Shown here: one piece after another, positions 32,993 to 57,536 of the stretch
How positions within the stretch are numbered: position 1 is the first letter of the stretch
How the letters are laid out: every line of letters starts with the position of its first letter
NCBI GenBank assembly: GCA_030429235.1
Contig: JAUIDB010000002.1
Coordinates: 176,769 to 240,768, forward strand
Source: Thermoanaerobaculia bacterium
GTDB lineage: Bacteria; Acidobacteriota; Thermoanaerobaculia; Multivoradales; JAIOJS01
Reading direction: 5' to 3'
Length of the DNA: 64,000 bases
Made by a program: the position numbers and the translations under genes
The notes under the pieces: generated by a model
What the model saw: the letters and a program-made list of their open reading frames with translations, nothing else
Databases searched by the model: none
What the model was told of the DNA's origin: nothing

Positions 32993-33013
32993 TCTCGGTT
33001 CCCGCCGGTCGGG

Positions 33014-33043: not shown

Positions 33044-33083
33044 CCCATTCGTCTCGAACTCCCTCTGGAGGAACCCACTGCCG

Positions 33084-36000: not shown

Positions 36001-38582
36001 ACGCCGCGTTGATCCTCGAGAAGATCCTGGGTCTGGAAGAGACCGCCGATCTGTTGGCCTACGCCCCGTCGGTGCGGGCCGCGGCGCTGCTGTACTGGGC
36101 CTACGAAACGGACAGCAACCAGCGACGATCGTGGGTGCGCCAGGCCGAGAGCCTCGGGCGCCTGCGCCAGACCTTCGAGCGCGCTCCGGCCGCGCTGGCG
36201 TTCGAGCGCCAGTTGGCCACGAAGATCGCAGCGTTCCATCGCGACGTGGTGGGGCGAGAGCTGGACGAAGGTCTGTCGACATCGGGCGGTCGCTACCTCT
36301 TCGAGGAACTCGCCCGGGGTGGGCGCCGATTCGTCGTTTCCGGGCCGGCGGAGGCCCTGCGGAGTGCGCTCTGGTCCCATCTCGAGGCCGAAGACCTGGC
36401 GCGCGGGCTGCAAGAGGACCTGCGCAATCTGCGCGAGGACCTGGCGGCCAGTGTCCGTCTGGCGTCGGCCTGGGTCGAGGGGTTCGTGGCGCGCAGCGAC
36501 TCCTCTCCGGGAGAGGAAGCACCCTACGTCGACGAGGTGATCGCTCTGCTACTGGTCGAGGGGCGCCAGGAGGTCGAAGTCTCGAACGCCCTGACCGAGG
36601 TCGAAATCGAAGGACTGTTGGGACAACATCCCCGCATCGAGGGCGGCACGATGCCCTTGCGTCTGGCCGAGTTTCTGACCCGACTCGACCACTTCCGGTC
36701 CCACCAGGTACCGCAGTTCCGGGCCTACCTGGACGCTCGCCGCAAGGTGTTGCACGCCGAGCGCGATCGACTCCGCCTGGCCGAGCTGCAACCACGGGTG
36801 ATGACGTCGTTCGTCCGCAACCGCCTGATCGACGAGGTCTACCTTCCCCTCATCGGCAACAACCTCGCCAAGCAGATCGGTTCCCTGGGCGAGGGCAAAG
36901 TCTCGGATCGCTCGGGTCTGCTCCTGTTGGTCTCGCCTCCCGGCTACGGAAAGACCACCCTGATGGAGTATTTGGCCAGTCGGCTGGGACTCGTCTTCGT
37001 CAAGGTCAACGGTCCGGCCCTCGGCCACGCCGTGACTTCGCTCGACCCGGCCGAAGCGCCCAACGCCACGGCACGGCAGGAGGTCGAGCGGATCAACTTC
37101 GCCTTCGAGATGGGCAACAACGTGCTGCTCTACCTCGACGACATCCAGCACACCCATCCCGAGCTGCTGCAGAAGTTCATCAGTCTCTGCGACGCGCAGC
37201 GCCGCGTCGAAGGGGTCTGGAAGGGGCGGACGAGGACCTACGATCTGCGGGGTAAGCGCTTCGCGGTCTGCATGGCGGGCAATCCGTACACCGAGTCGGG
37301 AGAGCGGTTCCAGGTTCCCGACATGCTGGCGAACCGCGCCGATATCTACAACCTGGGGGACGTCCTCGAGGGCAAGGACGAGCTCTTTGCGTTGAGCTAC
37401 CTCGAGAATTCATTGACCGCGAACTCCGCCCTGGCCACGCTGGCCAGCCGCGGGCCCGAGGACGTGCTACCGCTGATCCAGATGGCGCAAGGCCGGGACA
37501 TCTCGCCGGATCAACTGACCCACAGCTACTCCGCGGTGGAACTCGAGGAGATTCAGTCGGTCCTGAGTCAGCTCCTCGTGGTGCAGGAGCTGCTGCTGGT
37601 GGTCAACCAGCAGTACATCGCCTCGGCGGCCCAGGACGACGCCTACCGCACCGAACCGGCCTTCCTGCTCCAGGGCAGCTACCGCAACATGGTCAAGATC
37701 GCGGCCCAGGTGGTGCCCGCCATGAACGCGGAAGAGCTGCAGTCGGTGATCACCGACCATTACGTGGGCGAAGCCCAGACGTTGACCAGCGGCGCGGAAG
37801 CGAACCTGCTCAAGCTGGCGGAGTTGCGGGGGCGATCGACGCCGGAGGAAGCGGCGCGCTGGCAGAGCATCCGGACCGAGTATCGTCGCCGCCAGCTGGT
37901 CGGGGGTTCCGACGACGACCCCACCACCCGGATCGTCGGTGGACTGAGTGCGCTCTCGGAGAGAGTCGGTGGCATCGGCAAGGCCCTCGTCGAAGCGCAG
38001 GAGCAGGCCCGAACCCAGGCTGGCGCGTCGGACTCCGAGGCGGAAGCAGCGCACCGAGCGTCTCTCCTGAAGACGGTCGAGAAGGTCGGCAGGTCGCTGG
38101 CGGCCCAGAAGAAGCAGCCGATCGCACTGACTCTGCCCACGGAGCTGGAAGAGCAGCTCCCTCGGCTGATCGCAGGGGTCGAGGCAGTGGCGGCAGGGGT
38201 CTCCGCCACCGCGGCCACGGCCGGTGGGGCTCGTTCGGAGACGAGCCAGGAACTCGGCCCGTACCTGGAGAAGCTCGAGTCGGTCCTCGGGCAGATGGCG
38301 GCCCACATCGCGGCGGCTCCCAGTCAGGTCGCCGGCACCCGCGTGGTGCAGACGCTCTCTCCGGGGGTCCACGACTTGATGCGAAAGCTGGTCGACTCGA
38401 TCTCCAAGGGACTGATCCCCAGCGTGCGGGGAGTGGAGAAAGAACTCGCCAAGCAGGGTGTCGAGCCGGGCAAGCGCCTGAGCGATCTGATGGATCGCTC
38501 GCTCAAGGATCTCGACCTGTTGCGCGATCTGGTGGAGGCCTTGAAGAAGATTGATACCGGTCGCCTCGAGACCTCGGACTAG
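33084..38582 (+). CDS. Giant 1832-aa protein with a MoxR/AAA_5-like AAA+ ATPase domain near residues ~1270-1450. The rest has no domain I recognise.
   Basis: RBS GGAGGAAC upstream. Walker A LLLVSPPGYGKTTLMEY, Walker B VLLYLDDIQ, and AVCMAGNPYTESGERFQVPDMLANRADIY typical of MoxR-like AAA+. One uninterrupted ORF. Confidence 0.7.
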   Translation: MTDVAPTASYDLLLARLAEQAEGLAERAEALNRRRIELFGGTESEILGTERLRTVNNCVPRDIVALGHRFLFGYNVFLGLRQTTDVDDVFAVHSLVEEEGQMRLVEVPASETEDLLGGAEFRRDFGELFKYYKEARLLQLRKVDGKLLAVFQTGQLVGDIKVLRWSVAPDGTATYIDNRGERDHVFPPSHDFEWIRATRENFVLGRHPHVSILDEVFVEAVGGDLTVKVENNTEDGLGIYREPVDDPDQGLDDGEIRYAKLGGLILIEVLPFGETQRRYLVFDTRSQRVERIDAIAHACQQLPEDHGIVFPGGYFLQTGVSKQFDGEVQGLEFSRSIRSPNGEDVLYVFHRRDEGRYLLLPYNLIRRQVDNPIHCHGYSLFGDGRLLVFRSTSEEPTRVHPVQLWQTPFVSAEHAAQQPSSGSYLEGVGNADLVRGISEALGIRREATEGEPSRHTYEDLVAQTTRMLDAFPWLGHDEVALAPALQEIRTTAGLVLDEYEKVVVLRDEAAQAVAAASHELEELVRHLQPDAWHEVEPFVDALSSLRRQRGHLISLRDLRYVDLERVDELEAETVRRFEELSGDTVGYLLQPDALKPYRERILALEERVGAVEKNTELREILTEIESTGDALELLTEVVGTLEIDDATQRTDILEAISEALASLNRTRALATARRKELFRHEGVAEFAAQFKVFGQTVASALALADTPDKCDEQLARSMIQLEELEGRFSELDEFLEQLAIKREEVYEAFEARKQQLRDERGRQAEHVNRAADRILQAMVRRAGSLGSIDELNSYFAADPMAVKVRDLVARLRTLEEHVRADELEARLKASREEATRSLRDRLDLFEDGAAVLKLGRHRFAVNTQPLEPSLLPRDEGLVFHLAGTDYFDPVPEGMLDADSSLWQQTLVSETPDVYRGEYLASEILAAAGSSAGAATREELRRAALDDGGLLERVRKFALERYDEGYERGVHDADAALILEKILGLEETADLLAYAPSVRAAALLYWAYETDSNQRRSWVRQAESLGRLRQTFERAPAALAFERQLATKIAAFHRDVVGRELDEGLSTSGGRYLFEELARGGRRFVVSGPAEALRSALWSHLEAEDLARGLQEDLRNLREDLAASVRLASAWVEGFVARSDSSPGEEAPYVDEVIALLLVEGRQEVEVSNALTEVEIEGLLGQHPRIEGGTMPLRLAEFLTRLDHFRSHQVPQFRAYLDARRKVLHAERDRLRLAELQPRVMTSFVRNRLIDEVYLPLIGNNLAKQIGSLGEGKVSDRSGLLLLVSPPGYGKTTLMEYLASRLGLVFVKVNGPALGHAVTSLDPAEAPNATARQEVERINFAFEMGNNVLLYLDDIQHTHPELLQKFISLCDAQRRVEGVWKGRTRTYDLRGKRFAVCMAGNPYTESGERFQVPDMLANRADIYNLGDVLEGKDELFALSYLENSLTANSALATLASRGPEDVLPLIQMAQGRDISPDQLTHSYSAVELEEIQSVLSQLLVVQELLLVVNQQYIASAAQDDAYRTEPAFLLQGSYRNMVKIAAQVVPAMNAEELQSVITDHYVGEAQTLTSGAEANLLKLAELRGRSTPEEAARWQSIRTEYRRRQLVGGSDDDPTTRIVGGLSALSERVGGIGKALVEAQEQARTQAGASDSEAEAAHRASLLKTVEKVGRSLAAQKKQPIALTLPTELEEQLPRLIAGVEAVAAGVSATAATAGGARSETSQELGPYLEKLESVLGQMAAHIAAAPSQVAGTRVVQTLSPGVHDLMRKLVDSISKGLIPSVRGVEKELAKQGVEPGKRLSDLMDRSLKDLDLLRDLVEALKKIDTGRLETSD

Positions 38583-43068: not shown

Positions 43069-46000
43069 ATGAGCGCACCAGCCCGGGTGACGGGATCCGA
43101 CGTGGTACTGGTCAAACTACGCCCCTCGGCGCAACGGGCGGCCCGTCCCTCGCGGGTCGAACTCGAACCCCTCCACCGCTCGTCGGGTCCCGCAGCGGAG
43201 TTCGGCCTGGACGAAACCCCGCGCTGGTACCTCGCTCATGCGATCGAGGCGGCGGAGTCGCCCTGGGATCAGGCCCACGGTCGCGTGGCCCGCCAGCTCG
43301 GAGTGGCGGCGGAGGATCTGCTCTTCGTCGAGCCCGATCTGGTGCACTCGGTCTTCGTCGCCCCGGACGAGATCGGAGGACGAGACGCCGATCGACGAGC
43401 GGTGGGTGGGGACTGTACTCCTCGACCTCAGGATGGGAGGAACCGCAAGGCGAAGGGACCCGACGAGTTCGCCTGGCACCTGGGACGGCGCTACAGCGAT
43501 CTGGGCCGTGCCCGCGAGGCGGTCTCCTTCGCCGCGCCTCGCACCCGGATCGCTCACATCGACACCGGCTACTATCCGAGCCACGAGACGGCCCCGAGGC
43601 ACGCGCTGCCTTCGCTGGAGCGCAACTTCGTGGCCCGGGATTTCGATCCGTCGTCGGCCAGCGATCCCGACAACTGGCGGCTGCTGCTCGACAATTCGGG
43701 GCACGGAACCGGGACCCTCTCCATCCTGGCCGGGGGCGCGGTCTCCGCCCACGACGACTTCGTCATGGGCGGTGCCCCCGAGGCCGAGGTGGTGCCGATT
43801 CGGGTCAGCGACAGCGTCGTCCTCCTCCGAACCAGCTCCCTGGCCCGCGGCTTGCGCTACGCCGGCGAGAGCGGGTGTGCCGTGGCGACGCTGAGCATGG
43901 GGGGAGTTCCCACCCGAGCCTGGGGAGATGCCGTAGACGAGGCCTACGAACTCGGGCTCTGTCTGGTGGCGGCGGCTGGGAACCATGTCGGCAACCTGCC
44001 ACCCCGCAAGCTGGTCTACCCGGCCCGCTACCAGCGCGTGATCGCAGTGTGTGGAGTGATGGCGGATGGTCGCCCCTACAAGGACCTCGGAGGGCGCGCC
44101 CTCGAGGGCTGTTTCGGCCCCAAGTCGGCGATGCGCTTCGCCTTGGCGGCCTACACCCCGAACATCCCCTGGGCTCGTTTCGGCTGCCCCGAAGCGGTCC
44201 GCCTCAACGGTGAGGGCACCTCCAGTGCCACGCCGCAGGTGGCGGCGGCCGCTGCGCTCTGGATCGAGAAGTACAAGGATCTGCTGCCGAGCGACTGGCG
44301 TCGGGTCGAGGCGGTGCGGCACGCCCTCTTTACGAGCGCCAAGACCAAGGCGAAGACTCGCTACTTCGGCCAGGGCATCCTGCAGGCCCATCGCGCGCTG
44401 TCGGTGCGGCCCGACCTGACCCGACCCAAGTCGGCGCGCAGCGACAGCTCCTTCGGGTTTCTCCGCGTACTCACCGGCCTGGGGCTCGACGGTCGCACCA
44501 CCCGGGAGGAGATGTTCAACCTGGAACTCGCGCAGCGTTGGTTGCTCAGCGAGACCCTGCAAGAGATCGTGCCGGATCCGGAAGTCGCGCGGGACCTGCC
44601 GCGAGCCCGGCTGGCGCAGTTCGCCGAGGCGGTGATCGAGGACCCGGCGGCCTCTCGGGCGCTGCGTCGCCATCTGCTGAAGCGCTACGCGGTCTTGACC
44701 GGACGCAGACCGCCGCGCGGCCCCGAAGTGGAGAGCCTGCGGCCCGAGCCGCCTCCGGTCGCGGTGGCCCGGCCAGAGATTCCGACGCCGGCCCACCGGC
44801 GAATTCGGGTCTACGCCACCGATCCTGGTCTGTCGGCGGCCTTCGAGACGGCCGCGGTGGGAGAGGTGACGCTGCGGGTGCGCTGGGAGAACCTGCGCAA
44901 GGGTCCGGTGGGGGAATACCTGGCGGTCGAGGACACGGGGCCACGGCGGTACGAGGGAGTCAACCTCAACCACCGCAGTCTCTTGGCGCAGGACGGTTGG
45001 ACGCCCTCGGAAGGCAACCCTCAGTTCCACCAGCAGATGGTCTATGCCGTGGCGATGAAGACGATCGAGCACTTCGAAGGAGCGCTGGGGCGTCCGATCC
45101 TCTGGCGGCCTCGGCCGCGGCCCGACGACCCGAATGACGACAGCGAGTTCGTGCGTCGGCTGACCGTCCATCCCCACGCCCTGGAGGAGGCCAACGCCTA
45201 CTACAGTCCGCAGCAGATCGCTCTGCTCTTTGGCTACTTCGAACCCTCGGAGGCTCGGGGACGAGCCCGGAACGCGCCGGTCTACACCTGTCTGTCGCAC
45301 GACATCATCGTGCACGAGACGACGCACGCGATTCTCGATGGGATGCACCGTCGGTTCAACGAACCTTCGAACTTCGACGTCCTGGCCTTCCACGAGGGGT
45401 TTGCCGACCTGGTGGCGTTGCTCCAACACTTCACGATCCCAGAGCTTCTGGAGTACGAGATCGGACGCACCCGGGGCGATCTCGAGGCGGAAACGCTGCT
45501 CGGCAAGCTGGCGGTTCAGTTCGGCCGCGGCATCGGTAGCCGCGAGGGGCTCCGCAGTGCCATCGGCACCGTGCGGGATGGCGAGTGGGAACGTTCGACA
45601 CCCGATCCGGGAGCGCTCGACCGGCAGACGACGCCCCACGGCCGCGGTGGGGTGTTGGTGGCTGCGGTCTTCGACGCCCTGCTGGCGATCTATCGGCGCC
45701 GCATCGCCGACCTCCTGCGGATCGCCACCGGGGGTACCGGGGTCCTCCCCAGTGGAGCGATCCACCCCGACCTGGTCAAGCGCCTGGCGGCCGAGGCCTC
45801 GAAGGCCGCGGGCCATGTGCTGGGCATGTGCGTGCGGGCGCTGGACTACCTGCCGCCGGTCGACGTGACCTTCTTCGACTTCTTGCGCGCCCTGATCACG
45901 GCCGACTTCGAGATCGTGCCGGACGACCGCCGGGACTACCGCGTCGCTTTTGTCGAGGCGTTCAGTCGTCGCGGCATCCGGCCGGGGGAACACGACGAGC

Positions 46001-46629
46001 ACTCCGACGCGGCGGCGGCCCTGTCGGTCGACACTCTGCGCTGGCCGGGCTTCGACCGGTCTCGGATCGCCGCCGAGGAGCGCGACGAGATCCTAGGCCA
46101 CTACGGCAGGATGGTGGAGCAACTCAAGGAGTACGCCGACCGCTGCCTCTACCTCGGGGACCGGGAGGAGCTGTTCCAGGAGACCCGTCGGCAGCGCATC
46201 GTGCTCCACGCCCGCCTGCAGAAGGCGTTTGCGGCGGCGCCTGGCTTCGCCCGTTCGTTGGGGCTCGACGCCGAGCGTGGCTTCGAGGTGCACTCCCTCC
46301 GCCGCGCCCTGCGGTTCCGTCTGGATGGACGGGCGATGCCGCAGGTTTTCGTGTCGGTGACCCAGTCCGAGACGGTGGCGGCCGAACCCGATCGCGGCGT
46401 ACCCCGTCATACCCTGCGGGGAGGTGCCACGCTCGTGCTGGATCTAGCTGAACCGGACGAGCCTCGCTACCTGATCGGCAAGCAGCTGCGGAACTTCCGT
46501 CGTCGACGGGCCGTGGCTGAGTTCCACCGCCAGGTCCAGGCTGATCCGTTGCGCCGACTCTTCTTCGCGGCCCACCGACTCGAGCCCTTCGCGGCACTGC
46601 ACGACCTGGCGGAACACGATCGATCCTGA
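43069..46629 (+). CDS. Cytoplasmic 1186-aa fusion protein: an N-terminal S8 subtilase domain plus a C-terminal HExxH gluzincin-like metalloprotease domain.
   Basis: No signal peptide. S8 triad contexts AHIDTGY (Asp), DNSGHGTGT (His) and GTSSATPQVAAAAAL (Ser). Then IVHETTHAILDG...AFHEGFADL (HExxH plus downstream Glu). Confidence 0.75.
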   Translation: MSAPARVTGSDVVLVKLRPSAQRAARPSRVELEPLHRSSGPAAEFGLDETPRWYLAHAIEAAESPWDQAHGRVARQLGVAAEDLLFVEPDLVHSVFVAPDEIGGRDADRRAVGGDCTPRPQDGRNRKAKGPDEFAWHLGRRYSDLGRAREAVSFAAPRTRIAHIDTGYYPSHETAPRHALPSLERNFVARDFDPSSASDPDNWRLLLDNSGHGTGTLSILAGGAVSAHDDFVMGGAPEAEVVPIRVSDSVVLLRTSSLARGLRYAGESGCAVATLSMGGVPTRAWGDAVDEAYELGLCLVAAAGNHVGNLPPRKLVYPARYQRVIAVCGVMADGRPYKDLGGRALEGCFGPKSAMRFALAAYTPNIPWARFGCPEAVRLNGEGTSSATPQVAAAAALWIEKYKDLLPSDWRRVEAVRHALFTSAKTKAKTRYFGQGILQAHRALSVRPDLTRPKSARSDSSFGFLRVLTGLGLDGRTTREEMFNLELAQRWLLSETLQEIVPDPEVARDLPRARLAQFAEAVIEDPAASRALRRHLLKRYAVLTGRRPPRGPEVESLRPEPPPVAVARPEIPTPAHRRIRVYATDPGLSAAFETAAVGEVTLRVRWENLRKGPVGEYLAVEDTGPRRYEGVNLNHRSLLAQDGWTPSEGNPQFHQQMVYAVAMKTIEHFEGALGRPILWRPRPRPDDPNDDSEFVRRLTVHPHALEEANAYYSPQQIALLFGYFEPSEARGRARNAPVYTCLSHDIIVHETTHAILDGMHRRFNEPSNFDVLAFHEGFADLVALLQHFTIPELLEYEIGRTRGDLEAETLLGKLAVQFGRGIGSREGLRSAIGTVRDGEWERSTPDPGALDRQTTPHGRGGVLVAAVFDALLAIYRRRIADLLRIATGGTGVLPSGAIHPDLVKRLAAEASKAAGHVLGMCVRALDYLPPVDVTFFDFLRALITADFEIVPDDRRDYRVAFVEAFSRRGIRPGEHDEHSDAAAALSVDTLRWPGFDRSRIAAEERDEILGHYGRMVEQLKEYADRCLYLGDREELFQETRRQRIVLHARLQKAFAAAPGFARSLGLDAERGFEVHSLRRALRFRLDGRAMPQVFVSVTQSETVAAEPDRGVPRHTLRGGATLVLDLAEPDEPRYLIGKQLRNFRRRRAVAEFHRQVQADPLRRLFFAAHRLEPFAALHDLAEHDRS

Positions 46630-46647: not shown

Positions 46648-47178
46648 ATGAAACGAAACCACCTCTCGGCGCTGATCCTCGGAACTGCCTGCTTCTTCGG
46701 GGCGCTGGCGGCCCAGGCCGAGCGCCCCGCGGTCGGTGACTCGGCACCGGCCCTCGAACTCGTCGACACCGACGGGGTGTCGCATACCCTGAGCGAGGCC
46801 GGGGAGGGACCGCGGATCATCATCTTCTTTCGGGGCTCCTGGTGACCGCACTGCCGCAAGCAGCTAGTTGAGCTGCAGGCAGTGAAGGATCAGTTGGACG
46901 CCCTCGGGGCGGAGATCTGGACGGTCGCTCCCGACGACCCGACCAAGCTCGGCCAGCTGCGGGAGAGCGAGGGACTCGACTTCCCGGTTCTGGTCGATCC
47001 GGACTGTGGGGTGATTCGCGCCTGGGGTCTGCTCAACGAAGCTTCCGGCAAGGTGCCCCATCCGAGGGCCGTTGTGGTCGACCGCGAGGGCGTCATCCGC
47101 TATCTGCGCGTCGACGAGGACTACAGGGTCCGACCCCGAGCGGAGGAACTCGTCGAGGCCGTCCGCGACCTGCCCTGA
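46648..47178 (+). CDS. Secreted thioredoxin-fold (AhpC/TSA-redoxin-like) selenoprotein with an in-frame UGA (Sec) at 46843..46845 in a U-x-x-C active site.
   Basis: Track ORFs 46648..46845 and 46882..47178 are in the same frame (both ≡1 mod 3), separated only by a TGA that falls at the first position of the redox motif: ...IIIFFRGSW[U]PHCRKQLVELQ..., the canonical WCPxC of redoxins. Signal peptide present. Candidate SECIS hairpin immediately downstream. Confidence 0.6.
46851..46882 (+). promoter_or_regulatory. Candidate bacterial SECIS stem-loop, 6 nt downstream of the UGA.
   Basis: CUGCC-GCAA-GCAGCU-AGUUG-AGCUGC-A-GGCAG: an extended stem with an internal bulge, and an apical loop AGUUG (G/U present) 21-25 nt after the UGA. 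Confidence 0.5.
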
Positions 47179-47214: not shown

Positions 47215-47436
47215 ATGGAACGGGCGATCACCGGCTACCACCAGGACGACGAAGGGCACTGGGTGGCGCAGCTCGAGTGTGGTCACCACCAGCACGTGCG
47301 ACACGATCCGCCCTGGACCCTGCGGCCGTGGGTGGTCACCGCCGCCGGGCGCCGCGACAAACTCGGCTTGCTCCTGGACTGCCTGAAGTGCGACCGGGGC
47401 GAACCGCGGGACCGGCCGCTCGCCGAGCCGGTCTAG
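47215..47436 (+). CDS. DUF3565-like small protein.
   Basis: ITGYHQDDEGHWVAQLECGHHQHVRHDPPW pattern. A 73-aa ORF. Confidence 0.5.
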   Translation: MERAITGYHQDDEGHWVAQLECGHHQHVRHDPPWTLRPWVVTAAGRRDKLGLLLDCLKCDRGEPRDRPLAEPV

Positions 47437-50827: not shown

Positions 50828-50854
50828 CCTAGCTCAACCCAGGAGGTCCCATCG

Positions 50855-52507
50855 ATGAAGAAGCAACGACTCTCTCTCCCGACGCTCTCGACCCTCCCGA
50901 CCCGGACGAACCGAAGCAGGCTGCGTTTCGGGCCGACCCTACTGCTTCTCACCTTGGCCAGCTCGCTGGTGGCGGCGCAGACCCGTGGTCAGGCTCCGAA
51001 CCTGTTCGAGTTCCTCGATGCCGGTGACGTGCAACTGACCGAGGACCAGACCGGCCGGCTGCAGGCGTTCGAGGAGGACCCGACTGCCGGCGACGTCCAA
51101 CTCGTGTTGATCGACCTCGGACTGGCCGACATGGCGGACTCGATGAATCTGAATCTCATTCCCGGTCACGAGATTCCCCTGACTACCACCCGTCGCGATG
51201 AGCGGAAGGCCGGCGACTACAGTTGGTTCGCCGAGGACCGAGACAGCGGGAGTTCGGCCATGTTGGTGGTGCAGGGCGACGAGATCGTGGGCACCGTGCG
51301 GTCCTCCGGGCAACTCTTCCAGGTGCGCCCCCTGGGGGACGGCATCCACGCGGTGATCGAGGTCGAGCAGGACAAACTGCCGCCGGACCACCCGGAGGAG
51401 TACGACGAGCTGGACCCACAGCAGATGGACCCGGGGCCGGCGGGTGATCAAGGGGACGCGGCGATGGCGGACGCCTGTTCACCGATCGACGTCATCGTGG
51501 CCTATACCCCGGTCGCCGAAGCGCAGGCCGGCAACATCGGCGGTCTCATCCAGCTGGCGATCGACGAAACCAACCTCTCGTACGCCAACAGTGCCATCCA
51601 ACCCCGTCTGAACCTGGTCCACAGCTACGAGACCAACTACACCGAGTCCGGCAGCATGAGCCAGGATCGTGACCGCTTCCGCATCGTAGGGGATGGCCAC
51701 ATGGACGAGATCCACGGATTGCGAGATACCCACGGCGCCGATGTCGCGGTGTTGGTCACAGGGCGGGGCGGCTTCTGTGGCATCGCCGCCGACATCGGTG
51801 CCGTGGCCTCGACCGCCTTTGCGGTGGTGGGCCAGAACTGCGCCACCGGCTACTACTCCTTCGGCCACGAGATCGGGCACCTACAGGGTGCACGACACAA
51901 CCCGGAGGCCGATCCCACTCCTACCCCCTTCCCGTTTGGTCACGGCCTGTTCCACGCCCCCGACAGCTGGCGTACCGTGATGTCCTACAACTGCCCCGGC
52001 GGTTGTACGCGCGTCACGCAGTGGTCGAATCCCGATGTCGACTACCAGGGTACGCCCACCGGGACGGTGGCGGGGAACGACAACGCCCGAGTCCTCGACG
52101 AGACCGCGTGCACGATCGCAGGGTTCAGGAGCACGGCGCTGGCCGGGATCACGGTCACGCTGGCGCCCGACAGCCTCTCCCTGGGCTCCTCGGAGAGCGC
52201 GACGGTGGTGGCCACGGTCTTCGACGGTGGGAGTCCTCTGGCCGGGGAGTCGGTCTCCTTCTCCAGTGGAGATCCCGGCGTGGCGACGGTGACGGCGATG
52301 GGCACGACGGATGCCAGCGGACGTGCCTCCGGGACCGTGGAGGCGGTCGGCAAGGGTGAGACCGCGGTCGAGGCCTCGATCCAGGGGAGTACGGCTCGGT
52401 CGGAGGTCGAGGTCGTACCCGGCGCGTCCCTGGTCAGCCTGTCGCTGGGGCTGCTACTGGCCCTGCTCTTCCTGTGGAGGCGGGACCAGACGCTCGCGGC
52501 GCGATGA
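50855..52507 (+). CDS. Secreted metzincin (M72/reprolysin-like) protease with Ig-like (Big_2-like) repeats and a PEP-CTERM-like sorting tail.
   Basis: Signal peptide. GHEIGHLQGARH (HExxHxxGxxH). C-terminus reads EVEVVPGASLVSLSLGLLLALLFLWRRDQTLAAR*: a short motif, a hydrophobic helix, then an Arg cluster. Confidence 0.75.
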   Translation: MKKQRLSLPTLSTLPTRTNRSRLRFGPTLLLLTLASSLVAAQTRGQAPNLFEFLDAGDVQLTEDQTGRLQAFEEDPTAGDVQLVLIDLGLADMADSMNLNLIPGHEIPLTTTRRDERKAGDYSWFAEDRDSGSSAMLVVQGDEIVGTVRSSGQLFQVRPLGDGIHAVIEVEQDKLPPDHPEEYDELDPQQMDPGPAGDQGDAAMADACSPIDVIVAYTPVAEAQAGNIGGLIQLAIDETNLSYANSAIQPRLNLVHSYETNYTESGSMSQDRDRFRIVGDGHMDEIHGLRDTHGADVAVLVTGRGGFCGIAADIGAVASTAFAVVGQNCATGYYSFGHEIGHLQGARHNPEADPTPTPFPFGHGLFHAPDSWRTVMSYNCPGGCTRVTQWSNPDVDYQGTPTGTVAGNDNARVLDETACTIAGFRSTALAGITVTLAPDSLSLGSSESATVVATVFDGGSPLAGESVSFSSGDPGVATVTAMGTTDASGRASGTVEAVGKGETAVEASIQGSTARSEVEVVPGASLVSLSLGLLLALLFLWRRDQTLAAR

Positions 52508-54579
52508 CCAAGGCCGGCCCTCGACCCGCCCCCGAGTGGCGCCGTTTCGCTTTGGTGGTAGGGCCGGTGACCCTCGCCCTGGTCGGGCTCTACCTGGCCC
52601 GGGTCGAGCTGCCGTTCCTGGCTCCGCTGGGCGTGGCGACGGCCGAGATCGCCGGCCGGATCCTCGCGCTGTCGGGGATCGAGACGTTGCGAGCGGGCGA
52701 CGTTCTCAGCCACCCTTCCGGGTTCGGCTATCAGGTCGCCTACTCCTGTACCGGGCTCTTCCAGTGGGTCTTTCTGGTGGCTGGCCTCCTCGGGCTCCGC
52801 TTGACGGGGCGCTCGCGCTGGCTTCGTCTGCTGGTGGGCACGGGAGTTCTCGCGGCCGTCAATCAGCTGCGCCTGGTGGTTCTCTTCTGGCTCGGGTTGT
52901 TCGCTCCCCACTGGTTCGATTTCGCGCACGAGGTCCTCTTTCGGTCCTTGATGCTGGCAGTGGTGCTCCTGGTCTGGTTCTGGCGTCCCGCGCCGCCGCC
53001 GACAGACGCCGCGGTCACTTCGCCCCCAGGGGTCGGTTCCGAGAGTCGATCGTGGGGGCAATCGATGGCGTGCCTCGGGATGCTCCTGTCGGTGCTTTTG
53101 GCCGCCCCGGCCTGCGCGCAACCCCAGGAGACCACCGCCTCGGAGCAGGCCGAGCGCGAGCTCATCTCTCTGGAACGCGTGCAGAGTGAAGTAGCGGTCG
53201 AGCTCCGCCAACGCAGTCTGGAACGGGTCGACGGAGCCGTCTTTCAGGCCCTGACCGAGGCCGTGTCGCGAGAGCAGATCCTCTCCCAGGTGCCACTGGA
53301 TCGGGCCGAGGTCGGGGGATTCTTCGATTCGGCGGAGGGTTTGCAGGTCCTGGCCATTCTGCAGGATCCGGCGGTGTCGGAGTTGCAGCTGGTGCGAGCG
53401 GACCTCGCGGCGCTCCGCGAGCCGTCGGGGTTGATCGAAGAGCGGGACCTCGGCAATACCGCCAGCCTGCTGGGATTCGAGGTTCTCGACCCCCGATTCT
53501 CGGCCGTCGACGACCACACCGTGGCCTGGCAGGGTTCGTTGGCCGGCGAGAACGACGGCGATCTCGTACTGGTGGTGGACGAGGCGGGGGTCTCCGGCTT
53601 GATCCGGCGCGGCTCCACCCTCTACTCGGTGGTGCCGATGGGTCGTGAACTGCACGCCATCACTAGCTCCGAGCCCGCGGTCGGACTGCGCTCGCTCGAC
53701 GACGCTGGACCGCCCGGCGGCGAGGCGGGCGATGTCGACTCTGGAGATCAGGCCGAGACTCCGCCCGGCGAGAATGGGGCGGGGGCCGAGGCCACCGCAC
53801 CGGACGATGAAGGAGACGAGGCCCCGGTGGCGGACGATGCGCCCGATCTCTGCGCGGCCGGCTGGGTCGGCCCACCAGTGGAGATCGAGATTCTGGTCGG
53901 CGCGACTGCGCTCGCTCGAGAGCAGGCCCGCCGCCGAGGACGCCACCTCGACACCTTGATCCAGCTGGCCAAGTTCGTCGCCGACACCACCTTCAGCAAC
54001 AGCGAGATCCCGGTCACCGTCCGCCTCGTCGGGATCGAATCGGTCGACTACGAGGAAGAGTGCTCCCAGCTCTTCCAGTGCGCGCGGGACCTCGCACGAC
54101 CGGTCGAGAGCCTGGAGAATCTCATCGAGCGACGTCGCGAGACCAAGGCCGACGTGGTGATCCTGGTCCTTCACGAGGAGGACGACACCAACTGTGGCTG
54201 GGCCTCGGGGATCGGGGTCGAGGCCGGTCAGGCCCTGGCTGTCGTCAACTGGCAGTGCCTCAATGATCGCTTCTCGTTCATCCACGAAGTCGGTCACCTC
54301 ATCGGGGCCTGGCACAACCAGGAAGCGATCACCAGTCCGTTGCCCAAGGACCCGCGGTTCGCCCACGGCTTCGTCGATTGCTCGGAGAACCCGTTCTCGA
54401 CCGTGATGGGCGCTTCGAACTCCTGTCCGGGCGGCGTGGGACGACTGCTCGCCTGGTCCAACCCGGCGGTGCCCCACGCCGGACGCGCCACCGGCGTCAA
54501 GGAGAGTAGCGATGTCGCCTGTCTTTGGTCGTTGCGCGCTCGAGAGGTGGCGGGGTTCGGGGAACAGCTGACCCACTAA
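52504..54579 (+). CDS. Fusion protein: an N-terminal exosortase/archaeosortase-like polytopic membrane core (~170 aa) plus a C-terminal periplasmic metzincin domain paralogous to the previous gene.
   Basis: ATGA start/stop overlap with 50855..52507. N-terminus has four predicted TM helices, a Cys in AYSCTGLF and NQLR about 40 aa later, consistent with the Cys/Asn/Arg signature of exosortases. C-terminus has FIHEVGHLIGAWH and CPGG...WSNP, as in the neighbour. Confidence 0.55.
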   Translation: MTKAGPRPAPEWRRFALVVGPVTLALVGLYLARVELPFLAPLGVATAEIAGRILALSGIETLRAGDVLSHPSGFGYQVAYSCTGLFQWVFLVAGLLGLRLTGRSRWLRLLVGTGVLAAVNQLRLVVLFWLGLFAPHWFDFAHEVLFRSLMLAVVLLVWFWRPAPPPTDAAVTSPPGVGSESRSWGQSMACLGMLLSVLLAAPACAQPQETTASEQAERELISLERVQSEVAVELRQRSLERVDGAVFQALTEAVSREQILSQVPLDRAEVGGFFDSAEGLQVLAILQDPAVSELQLVRADLAALREPSGLIEERDLGNTASLLGFEVLDPRFSAVDDHTVAWQGSLAGENDGDLVLVVDEAGVSGLIRRGSTLYSVVPMGRELHAITSSEPAVGLRSLDDAGPPGGEAGDVDSGDQAETPPGENGAGAEATAPDDEGDEAPVADDAPDLCAAGWVGPPVEIEILVGATALAREQARRRGRHLDTLIQLAKFVADTTFSNSEIPVTVRLVGIESVDYEEECSQLFQCARDLARPVESLENLIERRRETKADVVILVLHEEDDTNCGWASGIGVEAGQALAVVNWQCLNDRFSFIHEVGHLIGAWHNQEAITSPLPKDPRFAHGFVDCSENPFSTVMGASNSCPGGVGRLLAWSNPAVPHAGRATGVKESSDVACLWSLRAREVAGFGEQLTH

Positions 54580-54598
54580 CCGCGAGAGGAGAGGAACG

Positions 54599-55702
54599 GT
54601 GACGGAAGCAGAGAGTTCGAGATCGGATCGGCAACGGACTAGGTTTGCAGTGGGTCTGACCGCATTGGCCTTGATCGGAGTGTCCTTGGGAGGTCGGGCT
54701 GCGGCGGGAGAGGCCGCTCGTTCCGACCTCTCGGCGACGCCGTCCCTCGCCGCCGTCGAGTGTCTCACCTACTCGCAAGAGCGCGGACTCTTCTCGCAGC
54801 TCGGCACGGCCTACGAGGTGCTGGACGACCAGTTCGCACGCAGCGATGCGATCGTGGCTTCGGAGATCGTCTTCGGGGCCGACAGCCGATTGGTGTTCCC
54901 CCGGATGGAGTACTCCAAACGGGGACCCTCCCACTGCGCCGATCTCTATTTCGTGGTGGCGGATCGGTTGACCAGCGACGAGGCGGCTGCGGCCACCATC
55001 ACCTGGGATCGGGCGTTCCCGGCCGATCCTCCGCTCGACCGTGGCTGGGCGCCGGCGGGAGCGGGAGGCGTGGCTCCGGGCGAGGACGGCAGCGACGGCT
55101 CTCCCGGAGGGCCCGGCAACGCGGGCCGCGACGGCGCGCACGCGCCCAATCTCCTGGTCATCCTGGGGGAGCTCACAGGCCCGCTAAGCCTCGACTTGCG
55201 GGGACAGGATGGAGGCACCGGAGGAGTGGGGCAGAGCGGTGGCCCGGGTGGAGCTGGGGCCAGCGGCCGCGCGGCGGTCCCCGGATTGCTCGACTGCCGG
55301 AAAGGACCGGGGGCGGGAGGCGACGGTGGTGACGGCGGCCTAGGAGGCCGCGGGGGTCGCGGTGGCAACGGCGGTTTGGGGGGCACGGTGATCGTGATCG
55401 CTCCCGAAGAGCAGGCGGCGACCATCGATGAACTGCTCGACGTGACCGTCGATGGCGGGGCCGCGGGCGAAGGCGGCGCGCCAGGCATTGGGGGCACGGA
55501 AGGACGTGCCGGACGAGAAGGCAGAGCCACGCCCCCGTGCCGATCGGCTCGTCGCGATGGAAAGACCGGGCAGAGGGGGGGCGACGGGGTGGAAGGGGAG
55601 GATGGTGACCCCGGAGAGTCGGGGGACTACTACCTGCTTCCCCTACCGGCCGAGCAGTTCGAGGAAGTTCTCGGGGCGGCCTTTGGTCGAGCCGCCGAGT
55701 GA
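54599..55702 (+). CDS. Secreted Gly-rich protein with collagen-like G-X-X triplet runs.
   Basis: GEDGSDGSPGGPGNAGRDGAH, GQDGGTGGVGQSGGPGGAGASG and GKTGQRGGDGVEGEDGDPGESGD are perfect G-X-X repeats. Hydrophobic N-terminus. Confidence 0.5.
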   Translation: MTEAESSRSDRQRTRFAVGLTALALIGVSLGGRAAAGEAARSDLSATPSLAAVECLTYSQERGLFSQLGTAYEVLDDQFARSDAIVASEIVFGADSRLVFPRMEYSKRGPSHCADLYFVVADRLTSDEAAAATITWDRAFPADPPLDRGWAPAGAGGVAPGEDGSDGSPGGPGNAGRDGAHAPNLLVILGELTGPLSLDLRGQDGGTGGVGQSGGPGGAGASGRAAVPGLLDCRKGPGAGGDGGDGGLGGRGGRGGNGGLGGTVIVIAPEEQAATIDELLDVTVDGGAAGEGGAPGIGGTEGRAGREGRATPPCRSARRDGKTGQRGGDGVEGEDGDPGESGDYYLLPLPAEQFEEVLGAAFGRAAE

Positions 55703-56688
55703 AGACGGGGGCCGTACTGCTCGTGTTCTGGCTGGCGCCCACCGTCCTGTGGGCGCAGCCCGAGGACGAAGTCGCCTACCTGGCGGAGCTGCTGCTGCAG
55801 GCTTCGGAGCTGCCGAAGCGCGCCCTGGTGGTAGGGGTGGAGAGCTACGATGACCTCCCCGACGTGACCAACGCCACCAGCGATGCGACGAGAGTCTCGC
55901 TGGCGCTCAAGGACCTCCAGTTCGCGGTCACCCCGGCCACCGACCTCAACCGGCGCCAGTTCTTCGAACACCTCGACGACTTCGTCGATCGCTCGCTCGC
56001 CGTCTCGCTTCCCGAACAGGCGGTGGTGGTCTTCTACTTCTCCGGCCACGGCTTTCGCTTCGGGGACGACAACATGCTGGTACCGGCCGATGCCGCAGCG
56101 ACTGGCGAGAGCCTGGTCGACAAGGCCGTGCCCCTCTCCCACGTGGTGCAGCGGATCGTGGACAAGAACGTGGCCCTGGCCCTTTTCTTCATCGATGCCT
56201 GCCGCACCGAGCTCACTAGTTTGCAGGAACTCGAACTCGAGGTCGGCTTCGCGGAGCCGCTGGTGCGGCACAACACCTACTACGGCTTCGCCAGCGGCTA
56301 CGGCAAACCCTCCTTCAGTTTCGTGCGGGAGGGGGACGCCAACAGTCCCTTTGCGAGGTCGCTGGCCACTCGGTTGACGATGCCGGGGGTCGAACTCCAC
56401 AGTCTCTTCGAAGGGGTCCGTCAGGAAGTGGCCAACCTCAGCGAGCAGCGTCAGGTGCCCCACGAACACAAGGACTTCTTCGGTGACTACTACTTTGCCT
56501 TGACGCCCCAGCATCGGAACGCTCTCAGGGGACAACTGTCTACGGCCCTCATTCTCGCCGCCCTGCGTGGACCGGGGTGCGTGCGCTCGTATCTCGCTTC
56601 CGATCCCGCGAGTGAGTTTTCGACCGCCGCCCGCGCCTGGCTTCTGGACCAGAACGAGCCGCTGAAAGGTAGCGTCCATTGCGAGTGA
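55699..56688 (+). CDS. Secreted caspase-like (peptidase C14) domain protein.
   Basis: Signal peptide MKTGAVLLVFWLAPTVLWAQP. RALVVGVESYDD, FYFSGHG (His) and LFFIDACR (Cys) dyad contexts. Confidence 0.65.
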   Translation: MKTGAVLLVFWLAPTVLWAQPEDEVAYLAELLLQASELPKRALVVGVESYDDLPDVTNATSDATRVSLALKDLQFAVTPATDLNRRQFFEHLDDFVDRSLAVSLPEQAVVVFYFSGHGFRFGDDNMLVPADAAATGESLVDKAVPLSHVVQRIVDKNVALALFFIDACRTELTSLQELELEVGFAEPLVRHNTYYGFASGYGKPSFSFVREGDANSPFARSLATRLTMPGVELHSLFEGVRQEVANLSEQRQVPHEHKDFFGDYYFALTPQHRNALRGQLSTALILAALRGPGCVRSYLASDPASEFSTAARAWLLDQNEPLKGSVHCE

Positions 56689-57536
56689 TGGGACCGCTTT
56701 CCCAGGTGCGGCTGCGCGGTGGCCTCGGCTGGCTGCTGCTGGTGGCGTTGACCGCTCCGGCCGGCGCCGAATCGGAACCGATCGCCAAGGCCCGGCAGAT
56801 GGCGCGCGAGAACCTAGAACCCAAGATCGTCTTGGGGGAACCGGTCCCTCTGGAAGAGCGCCCCTGGCAGGTAGCTCTGGTGCTTTCGGAGCTGACGGAC
56901 GACTACCGAGGGCAGTTTTGCGGTGGAACCCTGATCGTTCCGGACTGGGTGTTGACCGCGGCCCACTGCGTCGACGGCGACACCACCACCGAGGAGGTCG
57001 AGGTCCTCTTCGGGAGCGCGACGCTGGATCAGAGCGGCAATCGGATCGCCGTTCGTCAGATCCGCCTCCATCCGGCCTGGAACCCCGCCACCCGAGACCA
57101 CGACGCGGCGCTACTCCAACTCTCGGGCGCCGTCCGCAGCCAACCCCCGCTCGCGCTGGCCGCCTTAGAGCAGCTGACCGCGGCCGAAACCCTGGAGGTG
57201 TCCGGCTGGGGCAAGACGGACGAGTTCGTCGTCTTCAAGTCCCGGGGCCTTCTGCAGGTGCAGCTCCCCCTGGTCAGCCACGAGGACTGCACCCAACCCG
57301 ACAGCTACGGCCAGGCGATCACCCCGGCGATGTTCTGCGCCGGTCGCCGCGAGGGAGGGGAGGACGCCTGTCGCGGTGATAGCGGGGGCCCCGCCACGGT
57401 CACCGTCGAGGGGGAGGAGCGGTTGGCCGGCATCATCAGTTGGGGCGAAGGCTGTGGCCGGGCCAAGAAGTACGGCGTCTACACCACGGTGCCCCAGGTC
57501 GCCGACTGGATCCGCTCCGTGCTGTCGTCAGGGTAG
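56688..57536 (+). CDS. Secreted trypsin-like (S1) serine protease.
   Basis: LTAAHC, DAALLQL and GDSGGP triad. Signal peptide. ATG overlaps the upstream stop (tgATG). Confidence 0.85.
   Translation: MGPLSQVRLRGGLGWLLLVALTAPAGAESEPIAKARQMARENLEPKIVLGEPVPLEERPWQVALVLSELTDDYRGQFCGGTLIVPDWVLTAAHCVDGDTTTEEVEVLFGSATLDQSGNRIAVRQIRLHPAWNPATRDHDAALLQLSGAVRSQPPLALAALEQLTAAETLEVSGWGKTDEFVVFKSRGLLQVQLPLVSHEDCTQPDSYGQAITPAMFCAGRREGGEDACRGDSGGPATVTVEGEERLAGIISWGEGCGRAKKYGVYTTVPQVADWIRSVLSSG

What the first reader, a model, noticed from the sequence alone, without database searches (positions are those of the whole stretch)
46648..47178. Redoxin-family selenoprotein: in-frame UGA replaces the first Cys of the CxxC motif, with a SECIS-like hairpin just downstream
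Two adjacent same-frame ORFs are separated only by a TGA at 46843..46845. Read through, they give one signal-peptide thioredoxin-fold protein whose active site becomes W-[U]-P-H-C, with the UGA exactly where the redox Cys normally sits.

An extended stem-loop at 46851..46882 with apical loop AGUUG begins 6 nt after the UGA, as expected for a bacterial SECIS. Standard ORF calling would annotate two fragments.
Basis: partly seen in the sequence, partly recalled or inferred. Interest (0 to 1): 0.65.

Follow-up and report, generated by a model that had tools for sequence, protein, structure and literature searches.

The report
Exported peroxiredoxin-like selenoprotein gene (UxxC)
This is one gene, not two: it encodes a small secreted thioredoxin-fold redox enzyme whose active-site residue is selenocysteine, written as an in-frame UGA followed by an RNA hairpin, and it is a genuine but ordinary member of a selenoprotein family described about twenty years ago that gene callers routinely split.

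Summary
Window 46648-47178 (+) is one 176-codon gene with an in-frame TGA at 46843-46845. Read through, it gives an AhpC/TSA-fold protein with a signal peptide and the motif W-U-P-H-C.

- **Conserved TGA:** the same codon is TGA in 63 distinct homologs (33-58% identity), including three Thermoanaerobaculia/Acidobacteriota genomes. More distant relatives have TGC/TGT (Cys) there.
- **Hairpin:** 20 nt after the UGA lies a hairpin that meets every published bacterial SECIS criterion. Its apical helix covaries at synonymous sites across the family. Its loop G (G46867) is invariant in 63/63 Sec forms but present in only 2/12 Cys forms sharing the same peptide motif.
- **UGA is otherwise a stop:** it terminates 21 of 30 genes in the window, so there is no code reassignment.

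Caveats:
- In the window alone the hairpin is weak evidence; 33% of synonymous recodings give the upper stem.
- The window's lower stem is not conserved.
- No selA/B/C/D lies in the 64 kb, and the rest of the genome could not be reached.

This matches the known "Prx-like thiol:disulfide oxidoreductase / Prx-like 1" UxxC selenoprotein family, so it is a new member of a known kind.

The parts
46648..47178 (+). Complete selenoprotein gene: 176 codons including the Sec codon, plus the terminating TGA at 47176-47178.
   Evidence: sequence and translation. (AhpC-TSA E = 8.5e-28 over residues 29-152, spanning the TGA). tblastn matches of homologs run across the TGA in one frame.
46648..46719 (+). Signal-peptide coding part (residues 1-24, MKRNHLSALILGTACFFGALAAQA, predicted cleavage after A-Q-A). 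This is inferred; no predictor was run.
   Evidence: The sequence shows a basic n-region, a hydrophobic core and an AxA site. 51 of 55 homologs with complete N-termini have a hydrophobic 12-mer ahead of the domain.
46843..46845 (+). Sec codon UGA (residue 66), the first position of the U-P-H-C redox motif.
   Evidence: TGA at the same codon in L001, L003, L004, L005 and L021 and in 68 of 80 metagenomic loci; TGC/TGT in the others. Aligns to the first Cys of the ResA WCxxC motif.
46852..46854 (+). Codon for Cys69, the resolving partner in UxxC. It aligns with the peroxidatic Cys of Bcp-type peroxiredoxins.
   Evidence: Invariant in 57/57 Sec forms. PDB alignments to ResA and Bcp.
46860..46876 (+). 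Conserved bSECIS core: upper stem GCAGCU/AGCUGC (46860-46865 / 46871-46876) and apical loop AGUUG (46866-46870). The family-invariant loop G is at 46867. The loop starts 20 nt after the UGA.
   Evidence: fold. (86.6% of cells paired, 4 of 7 pairs with compensatory changes, 0/500 shuffles reach the covariation score). (G25 in 63/63 Sec forms against 2/12 Cys forms, p = 8e-11). (covariation at synonymous sites). Criteria taken from PMC13188914.
46849..46884 (+). Full local hairpin, including a 7-bp lower stem (CACUGCC/GGCAGUG) that is specific to this sequence.
   Evidence: -19.3 kcal/mol, z = -2.75. The lower helix is paired in only 44% of cells across 63 homologs, so it is not a conserved feature.

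Best explanation
Window 46648-47178 is a single gene for a Sec-containing, exported, peroxiredoxin-like thiol:disulfide oxidoreductase with a UxxC motif.

Mechanism:
1. During translation the ribosome meets UGA66. A SelB-type factor carrying Sec-tRNA(Sec) is tethered by the mRNA hairpin whose apical loop (AGUUG, G46867) begins 20 nt downstream. Selenocysteine is inserted instead of terminating, and translation runs on to the ordinary TGA stop at 47176. This step is inferred from comparative evidence; the machinery itself was not seen.
2. The 176-aa precursor carries a type-I signal peptide and is exported to the periplasm or cell envelope. This is inferred from the sequence and its conservation in the family.
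3. The mature thioredoxin-fold protein, about 152 aa, uses Sec66 as the attacking nucleophile at the position of the first Cys of ResA/TlpA W-C-x-x-C. Cys69 acts as resolving partner, and the pair cycles through a selenenylsulfide to reduce an oxidised envelope substrate (a disulfide, sulfenate or possibly a peroxide). The position is shown by alignment; the chemistry, substrate and reductant are inferred.

The gene has no conserved operon partner. It belongs to the already described 'Prx-like thiol:disulfide oxidoreductase / Prx-like 1' selenoprotein family.
For: - **One domain across the TGA:** Pfam AhpC-TSA E = 8.5e-28 and Redoxin E = 1.1e-22.
- **TGA conserved at the identical codon:** in a 54%-identical homolog, in three Thermoanaerobaculia/Acidobacteriota genomes at 46-58% identity, and in 68 of 80 metagenomic relatives. 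That is 63 distinct sequences in all.
- **Sec/Cys pairing:** 12 metagenomic relatives and about 50 Firmicutes/Bacteroidota genomes have TGC/TGT there. One of them, L066, is 53% identical to the window protein and keeps the hairpin.
- **Database signature:** 27 of the top 30 and 46 of the top 63 representatives in an exhaustive search are fragments that start just after the Sec site.
- **bSECIS criteria from PMC13188914 are all met:** loop of 5 nt, upper stem of 6 bp, G at loop position 2 followed by U, spacing of 20 nt, MFE -19.3 kcal/mol.
- **Apical helix across the family:** 86.6% of cells paired, 4 of 7 pairs compensatory, 0/500 shuffles reach the score, and slid controls pair in 45% of cells or fewer.
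- **Covariation at synonymous sites:** Q72 CAA with L76 UUG, p = 1.3e-5; L73 UUR with codon-75 NAA, p = 1.9e-8.
- **Loop G invariant** in 63/63 Sec forms although the codon encodes G, V or A; present in 2/12 Cys forms with the same CR[KR]QL motif, p = 8e-11.
- **UGA is the normal stop** of 21 of 30 window genes, including this one.
- **Sec aligns to the first Cys** of ResA WCxxC.
- **Signal-peptide-like N-termini** in 51 of 55 homologs.
- **The family is described in the literature**, and Sec use in Acidobacteria is recorded.
Against: - No selA, selB or selD, and no tRNA-Sec, in the 64-kb window or in any flank held. The rest of the genome could not be searched, so Sec-decoding capacity of this organism is inferred, not shown.
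- In this window alone the upper stem would arise in 33% of synonymous recodings of the peptide.
- Hairpin energies of Sec forms and matched Cys forms are similar (-13.9 against -12.9 kcal/mol).
- Covariation statistics ignore phylogenetic relatedness.
- The metagenome scan used patterns derived from Sec forms (WxP[HF]CR[KMR]QL and YLRVDEDY). The Sec:Cys ratio and the invariance of R70/Q72/L73 are therefore partly ascertainment effects.
- Export, substrate, direction of electron flow and reductant are untested.
- No structure model could be made.
Confidence: 0.88

Rival explanations
1. The TGA is a real stop. The locus is a broken gene (pseudogene) or two independent small ORFs, and the hairpin is a by-product of the peptide Q-L-V-E-L-Q encoded with GC-rich codons.
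For: - Gene callers produce two products.
- UGA is the commonest stop in the window.
- The upper stem arises in 33% of synonymous recodings.
- No Sec machinery in the window.
Against: - The TGA sits at exactly the same codon in 63 distinct homologs down to about 33% identity, with the reading frame and domain conserved on both sides. Independent nonsense mutations cannot explain this.
- The codon aligns with a catalytic Cys.
- The downstream 'ORF' would start at GTG 46882, inside the conserved helix, and would lack the active site.
- Compensatory synonymous changes and the invariant loop G are specific to the TGA forms.
Confidence: 0.02
2. The UGA is recoded through the hairpin, but not to selenocysteine. 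A tRNA(Sec)-like opal suppressor inserts Cys or Ser instead. Candidates are a selC*-type tRNA(Cys)UCA with a SelB paralog, or an acidobacterial allo-tRNA.
For: [quoted passage not shown]
- The closest genomic relatives of this gene are Acidobacteriota.
- The machinery of this genome was not seen.
Against: - In the cited work, all selC*-containing genomes also had a complete Sec system.
- The site, motif (UxxC) and family are those of an established selenoprotein family.
- If Cys were wanted, a TGC/TGT codon suffices, as in the Cys homologs. Long-term retention of UGA plus the hairpin is best explained by a benefit of Se.
- Sec use is documented in Acidobacteria.
Confidence: 0.04
3. Functional rival: the protein is a true peroxidase (a Bcp/PrxQ-like peroxiredoxin using Sec to attack peroxide) rather than a thioredoxin-like thiol:disulfide oxidoreductase.
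For: - The best Pfam family is AhpC-TSA.
- The best, though sub-threshold, NCBIfam model is thioredoxin-dependent thiol peroxidase (48.4 bits).
- Bcp structures are among the top PDB matches and align over the whole domain.
- Sec is intrinsically reactive with peroxides (general selenoenzyme chemistry).
Against: - The peroxiredoxin active-site signature P-x-x-x-T/S-x-x-C is absent. Sec sits where the catalytic Thr/Ser would be, and Arg62 where the Pro would be.
- The residue aligned with the catalytic Arg (R140 here) is Ala/Thr/Ser/Gly in most family members.
- The motif is a thioredoxin-type W-C-x-x-C, and ResA is the best PDB hit.
- The literature classes this family as UxxC 'thioredoxin-like', distinct from the TxxU Sec-peroxiredoxins.
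Confidence: 0.15

Closest known systems
Prx-like thiol:disulfide oxidoreductase, also called 'Prx-like 1': a bacterial selenoprotein family (PF00578, UxxC; Kryukov/Zhang/Gladyshev lineage of papers; PMC1088965, PMC1794560, PMC2398784, PMC13188914)
   Same: AhpC/TSA (PF00578) domain. Sec is the first residue of a thioredoxin-like UxxC motif. Cys-containing homologs carry CxxC at the same site. A bSECIS lies directly downstream of the UGA.
   Different: - Direct similarity to the named type member (WP_010940744.1, Geobacter) was not tested.
- This clade is defined by W-U-P-[HF]-C-R-[KR]-Q-L, is mostly Sec-containing in the sample obtained, and almost always carries a signal peptide.
- Its nearest genomes are Thermoanaerobaculia/Acidobacteriota rather than the delta-proteobacteria in which the family was first listed.
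ResA / TlpA / CcmG(DsbE) extracytoplasmic thiol-disulfide oxidoreductases
   Same: Exported thioredoxin fold. The W-C-x-x-C motif aligns residue for residue (ResA variant 3c71, E = 1.4e-9), with Sec on the N-terminal nucleophilic Cys. A conserved Pro (P139, 89%) sits where the cis-Pro loop is expected.
   Different: Scores far below the NCBIfam ResA cut-off (45.8 against 170 bits). Sec replaces Cys. There is no cytochrome-c-maturation or ccdA/dsbD neighbour.
Bcp/PrxQ peroxiredoxins and the Sec-containing peroxiredoxins (TxxU)
   Same: Same Pfam family and overall fold. Cys69 aligns with the peroxidatic Cys of Bcp.
   Different: The catalytic Thr/Ser position is occupied by Sec, and the catalytic Arg is not conserved. 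Sec lies three residues upstream of the position used in TxxU Sec-peroxiredoxins.
Consensus bacterial SECIS (bSECISearch model; E. coli fdhF SECIS as the experimental paradigm)
   Same: Lies in the coding sequence immediately 3' of the UGA. Small apical loop with G followed by U in the first two positions. Upper stem of 4-16 bp. Spacing of 16-37 nt (here 20). MFE below -7.5 kcal/mol.
   Different: No sequence resemblance to fdhF was tested, and Rfam has no matching model. Binding to SelB is untested. A subclade of the family uses a register-shifted hairpin, GGCC-AGUCU-GGCC.

Membership tests
Prx-like UxxC selenoprotein family (Prx-like 1 / Prx-like thiol:disulfide oxidoreductase) | AhpC/TSA (PF00578) domain | tested here: met
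   E = 8.5e-28, 97.2 bits against a cut-off of 26, residues 29-152.
Prx-like UxxC selenoprotein family (Prx-like 1 / Prx-like thiol:disulfide oxidoreductase) | In-frame UGA as the first residue of a UxxC redox motif | tested here: met
   W-[TGA]-P-H-C at 46840-46854.
Prx-like UxxC selenoprotein family (Prx-like 1 / Prx-like thiol:disulfide oxidoreductase) | Cys-containing homologs with Cys aligned to the UGA (a Sec/Cys pair) | tested here: met
   12 metagenomic and about 50 genomic homologs have TGC/TGT at the aligned codon. ResA Cys aligns to the site. Full-length WCPxC representatives were found.
Prx-like UxxC selenoprotein family (Prx-like 1 / Prx-like thiol:disulfide oxidoreductase) | UGA conserved in orthologs of other organisms | tested here: met
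   63 distinct TGA-containing sequences at 33-58% identity.
Prx-like UxxC selenoprotein family (Prx-like 1 / Prx-like thiol:disulfide oxidoreductase) | Direct sequence similarity to the published type member (WP_010940744.1) | not tested
   The sequence was not obtainable with the tools. Family assignment rests on domain, motif and published family definitions.
Bacterial SECIS (consensus bSECIS model) | 3-9-nt apical loop; 4-16-bp upper stem; G in the first two loop positions; 16-37 nt from the UGA; MFE <= -7.5 kcal/mol | tested here: met
   Loop AGUUG (5 nt), 6-bp upper stem, G at loop position 2 followed by U, 20-nt spacing, -19.3 kcal/mol. Criteria quoted from PMC13188914.
Bacterial SECIS (consensus bSECIS model) | Structure conserved by compensatory change in homologs | tested here: met
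   Apical helix: 86.6% of cells paired, 4 of 7 pairs with double changes, 0/500 shuffles reach the score. Synonymous-site covariation p = 1e-5 to 2e-8. The lower stem is not conserved (44% paired).
Bacterial SECIS (consensus bSECIS model) | Binds SelB and directs Sec insertion | not testable with these tools
   Needs a reporter assay or a binding experiment.
Sec-decoding organism | selA, selB, selC (tRNA-Sec) and selD present in the genome | not testable with these tools
   Within the 64-kb window none is present: ARAGORN finds 0 tRNAs, Rfam finds nothing, Pfam of 40 ORFs shows none, and tblastn with E. coli SelA/B/D gives no hit.
Canonical peroxiredoxin (Bcp/PrxQ/AhpC) | P-x-x-x-T/S-x-x-C active-site motif and a conserved catalytic Arg | tested here: not met
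   Sec occupies the Thr/Ser position and Arg62 the Pro position (alignment). The residue aligned to the catalytic Arg is A/T/S/G in most of the 57 family members. NCBIfam peroxidase models score 16-48 bits against cut-offs of 140-456.
ResA / DsbE / TlpA thiol-disulfide oxidoreductases | Reaches the curated family score | tested here: not met
   ResA 45.8 against 170 bits; DsbE 17.6 against 123; StoA 29.5 against 210. It works like these (WCxxC alignment, export) but is not a member.
SelL-related redox protein (NF040769) | Reaches the curated family score | tested here: not met
   47.8 against 120 bits.

The most novel reading that the evidence does not exclude
The conserved UGA plus hairpin in this Acidobacteriota-like lineage might be read not by the canonical Sec system but by a tRNA(Sec)-like opal suppressor that delivers Cys or Ser at residue 66. 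Candidates are a selC*-type tRNA(Cys)UCA with a SelB paralog, or one of the allo-tRNAs reported from Acidobacteria. That would make this family a natural target of SECIS-guided non-Sec recoding.

A milder and likelier novelty: the W-U-P-[HF]-C-R-[KR]-Q-L clade, with invariant R62, D117 and R162, nearly always exported, and covered by no curated NCBIfam model, may be a functionally distinct periplasmic selenoenzyme with an unknown substrate.
Probability: 0.03. Interest if true: 0.6.

Novelty: new member of a known kind. Interest (0 to 1): 0.27.

Why it matters
**Annotation.** The locus should be one selenoprotein gene, not a 65-aa plus a 98-aa fragment. The problem is systematic: in an exhaustive search of 1.84 billion representatives, 27 of the 30 closest proteins are truncated fragments that begin just after the Sec site. 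No NCBIfam model reaches its cut-off. A curated HMM or selenoprotein rule for the W-U-P-[HF]-C-R-[KR]-Q-L clade would repair many records.

**Biology.** It adds an exported UxxC selenoprotein to Thermoanaerobaculia-like Acidobacteriota and implies that these organisms decode Sec. It also gives a clean example of a coding-region SECIS whose constraint is visible as covariation at synonymous sites and as an invariant loop G that is lost in Cys forms. It does not change what is known about selenoproteins.

Tried and rejected
1. **DUF3565 gene 36 nt downstream (47215-47436) as a functional partner.** Rejected: no DUF3565 homolog in any other locus, 0 of 41 Sec loci with at least 800 nt downstream.
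2. **Any conserved neighbour.** All-against-all clustering of flanking ORFs of the Sec loci found only small clusters (5 loci or fewer) within one soil subclade, some of them antisense artefacts.
3. **tRNA-Sec or sel genes in the flanks of 142 related loci.** None found.
4. **Other selenoprotein genes in the window as indirect evidence of the Sec trait.** A scan for same-frame TGA junctions with coding-like GC3 on both sides found only this one. The other two hits are a gene boundary and an antisense frame.
5. **Rfam.** Nothing at gathering thresholds on the window, and only a chance 12-bit viral pseudoknot hit at E = 7.3 on 46800-46940.
6. **Hairpin free energy as a discriminator between Sec and Cys forms.** Not informative: -13.9 against -12.9 kcal/mol for motif-matched Cys forms.
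7. **The window's extended lower stem as a family feature.** Rejected: 44% paired.
8. **Genome-wide UGA reassignment.** Rejected: 21 of 30 genes end in TGA.
9. **Structure prediction of the read-through product.** No fold search was therefore done.
10. **Local sigma-70 promoter or intrinsic terminator.** None found. The gene sits 18 nt after the S8-peptidase gene and may be co-transcribed with it.
11. **The first word-indexed protein search.** It returned only two hits, both C-terminal fragments, so the DNA-level scans were needed.

Full report
**1. The observation.**
The sequence is as described. An ATG at 46648, directly after an in-frame TAG, opens a frame that meets TGA at 46843-46845 and continues in the same frame to TGA at 47176-47178. 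ORF listing splits this into 46648-46845 (65 aa) and a second ORF called from GTG 46882 (98 aa). A public assembly of the same DNA carries exactly these two gene calls.

Read through, the product is 176 aa: MKRNHLSALILGTACFFGALAAQA/ERP...IIIFFRGSW-U-PHCRKQLVELQ...DLP. With Cys in place of the stop, Pfam gives AhpC-TSA (E = 8.5e-28, residues 29-152) and Redoxin (E = 1.1e-22). A single domain therefore spans the TGA.

**2. Is the TGA a coding position?**
- The word-indexed protein search returned only two proteins. Both were C-terminal fragments: the window's own, and a 54%-identical one. The DNA of the second (L001) has TGA at the identical codon...VLIFFRGTW*PFCRMQL..., with the upstream frame conserved.
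- A scan of one genome per species found three close relatives at 46-58% identity. All are Thermoanaerobaculia/Acidobacteriota MAGs, all have TGA at that codon, and all have an N-terminal signal peptide. About 50 distant Firmicutes and Bacteroidota homologs have TGC/TGT.
- A metagenome scan gave 80 further relatives at 33-58% identity: 68 with TGA and 12 with TGC/TGT. Altogether there are 63 distinct TGA-containing sequences.
- An exhaustive HMMER search with the C-terminal 110 residues found that 27 of the 30 closest and 46 of the 63 closest representatives (E <= 1e-10) are fragments of about 75-120 aa starting just after the Sec position. Full-length relatives carry W-C-P-x-C.
- UGA is otherwise the ordinary stop in this DNA (21 of 30 Pfam-supported genes, including this gene's own terminator). 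This rules out a reassigned code.

A caveat on ascertainment: the metagenome patterns (WxP[HF]CR[KMR]QL and YLRVDEDY) came from Sec forms. The Sec:Cys ratio therefore describes this motif-defined clade only, and the invariance of R70/Q72/L73 is partly built in.

**3. The hairpin.**
RNAfold gives a lower stem at 46849-46855/46878-46884, an upper stem GCAGCU/AGCUGC at 46860-46865/46871-46876, and a loop AGUUG at 46866-46870. The energy is -19.3 kcal/mol with z = -2.75; in 58 nt of context it is -24.1 kcal/mol with z = -2.4.

The published bSECIS model (PMC13188914) asks for a 3-9-nt loop, a 4-16-bp upper stem, G in the first two loop positions (usually followed by G or U), 16-37 nt between UGA and loop, and MFE <= -7.5. 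The window meets all of these: 5-nt loop, 6 bp, A-G-U..., 20 nt, -19.3.

Taken alone, this is weak evidence. The stem is encoded by K-Q-L-V-E-L-Q, and recoding that peptide with the window's codon usage gives the 6-bp upper stem in 33% of trials, or 4.7% with the lower stem as well.

The decisive evidence is comparative. It comes from an ungapped alignment of the 63 Sec forms (A3):
- The apical helix (columns 18-24/28-34) is paired in 86.6% of cells, and 4 of 7 pairs show double compensatory changes. No shuffle out of 500 reaches the covariation score, and slid registers pair in 45% of cells or fewer. RNAalifold independently predicts its 5-bp core.
- The changes are at synonymous sites. Gln72 CAA goes with Leu76 UUG (8 of 10, against 5 of 53 for CAG; p = 1.3e-5). 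Leu73 UUR goes with an A-ending codon 75 (12 of 19 against 0 of 44; p = 1.9e-8). These p-values ignore shared ancestry.
- The loop base G46867 (column 25) is G in 63/63 Sec forms although its codon encodes Gly, Val or Ala. It is G in only 2 of 12 Cys forms that share the CR[KR]QL motif (p = 8e-11).
- The window's lower stem is not conserved (44% paired).
- Fifteen Sec forms do not keep all five core pairs in this register. Most belong to an LA[SG]LA subclade that instead has a register-shifted hairpin, GGCC-AGUCU-GGCC, which also has G then U in the loop.
- Rfam has no matching model.

**4. What the protein is like.**
- The best solved relatives are ResA (E = 1.4e-9) and Bcp-type peroxiredoxins.
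- Sec66 aligns with the first, nucleophilic Cys of ResA's W-C-x-x-C. Cys69 aligns with the peroxidatic Cys of Bcp. Sec therefore occupies the position of the peroxiredoxin catalytic Thr/Ser.
- Among 57 Sec forms, F60, R62, W65, U66, P67, C69, D117 and R162 are invariant. P139, the likely cis-Pro, is 89% conserved. The residue aligned with the peroxiredoxin catalytic Arg (R140 here) is mostly Ala/Thr/Ser/Gly.
- This is therefore a thioredoxin-type UxxC site on an AhpC/TSA scaffold, not a canonical peroxidase site.
- 51 of 55 complete N-termini have a hydrophobic, signal-peptide-like segment. Here it is MKRNH-LSALILGTACFFGALAA-QA|E. Export is inferred.
- No NCBIfam model reaches its cut-off: thiol peroxidase 48 against 140 bits, SelL-related 48 against 120, ResA 46 against 170.

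**5. Surroundings.**
The gene lies 18 nt after a 1186-aa S8-subtilase gene and 36 nt before a DUF3565 gene. No promoter-like or terminator-like site lies between them.
- Neither neighbour, nor any other gene, is conserved next to the homologs.
- Pfam annotation of 40 window ORFs shows proteases, GGDEF proteins, a molybdopterin-oxidoreductase cluster and a large DUF3686 ATPase, but no SelA, SelB or SelD.
- ARAGORN finds no tRNA. tblastn with E. coli SelA/B/D finds nothing in the window or in any flank held.
- No second read-through candidate exists in the window.
- Sec use in Acidobacteria is on record: 3 families and 4 selenoproteins in the 2006 survey (PMC1794560).

**6. Comparison with what is known.**
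- 'Prx-like 1 (pfam00578, UxxC)' had 225 selenoproteins and 2,740 Cys homologs in GOS (PMC2398784).
- 'Prx-like thiol:disulfide oxidoreductase' is listed in genome surveys (PMC1794560; PMC5029168). The 2026 review lists it as PF00578, UxxC/UxxU, 'predicted with high confidence' (PMC13188914).
- The window's gene meets every defining feature I could test: domain, UxxC, Sec/Cys pairs, conserved UGA and bSECIS. Direct similarity to the named type member was not tested.
- It works like ResA/TlpA but does not reach those families' scores. It is not a canonical peroxiredoxin.

**7. Rivals.**
- A pseudogene or two separate ORFs is excluded by the conservation of the TGA (confidence 0.02).
- SECIS-guided insertion of Cys or Ser by a tRNA(Sec)-like suppressor is documented elsewhere, and allo-tRNAs occur in Acidobacteria (PMC5389517). 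It cannot be excluded without the genome, but it is unlikely (0.04).
- Peroxidase rather than disulfide-reductase chemistry remains a live functional alternative (0.15).

**8. Verdict.**
This is a real selenoprotein gene, correctly read by the first stage. It is a new member of a known kind. Its value is mainly for annotation, plus a clean example of SECIS covariation at synonymous sites. Interest is about 0.27.

Noticed in passing
L021:3109 and L021:2564 (Bacillus sp. DJP31, NZ_JBMERO010000037.1): A Bacillus genome carries a TGA-containing homolog (LRGTW*PSCRKQLVQLRE) with its own hairpin, GCAACU-AGUUC-AGUUGC. A Cys paralog (FRGSWCPACVQDL) lies 545 nt upstream. Selenoproteins are uncommon in Bacillales.
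   Followed up: partly
L081, L083, L085-L087, L089, L091, L092, L098, L104, L108, L110 (about +21 to +36 nt after their TGA): A soil subclade with the peptide ...CRKQLA[SG]LA... does not keep the family's hairpin register. It has a shifted one instead, GGCC-AGUCU-GGCC, again with G then U in the loop. This points to SECIS turnover within one protein family.
   Followed up: partly
P0006 (192 aa): A full-length homolog has Arg at the Sec position and a disturbed motif (FFRGLW-R-PFRRCQL). This is possibly a TGA-to-CGA change, or a decayed copy.
   Followed up: no
L066:1174: A Cys form (TGC) that is 53% identical to the window protein keeps the full apical hairpin GCAGCUC-GGC-GAGCUGC. It looks like a recent Sec/Cys switch.
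   Followed up: no
window 18601-25692 (+): A four-gene respiratory-type cluster: a molybdopterin oxidoreductase (domains begin at about residue 433 of the open frame), a NapB-like cytochrome c, a 4Fe-4S protein and an NrfD-type membrane subunit. No in-frame TGA was seen in the molybdoenzyme.
   Followed up: partly
window 30980-38579 (+): A 670-aa ORF with no Pfam match is followed by a 1872-aa protein with DUF3686 ('ATPase involved in DNA repair', E = 8e-201), DUF7902 and AAA domains. Function unknown.
   Followed up: no
window 43069-46629 and 50828-59036 (+): The selenoprotein gene sits in a protease-rich stretch: an S8 subtilase (1186 aa), two reprolysin-like M12B proteins, a caspase-family C14 protein, a trypsin and an M28 peptidase. 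The C14 and trypsin genes overlap.
   Followed up: no
window 47215-47436 (+): A DUF3565 gene (73 aa, Cys/His-rich) lies 36 nt downstream of the selenoprotein gene. The pairing is not conserved in any related locus.
   Followed up: yes
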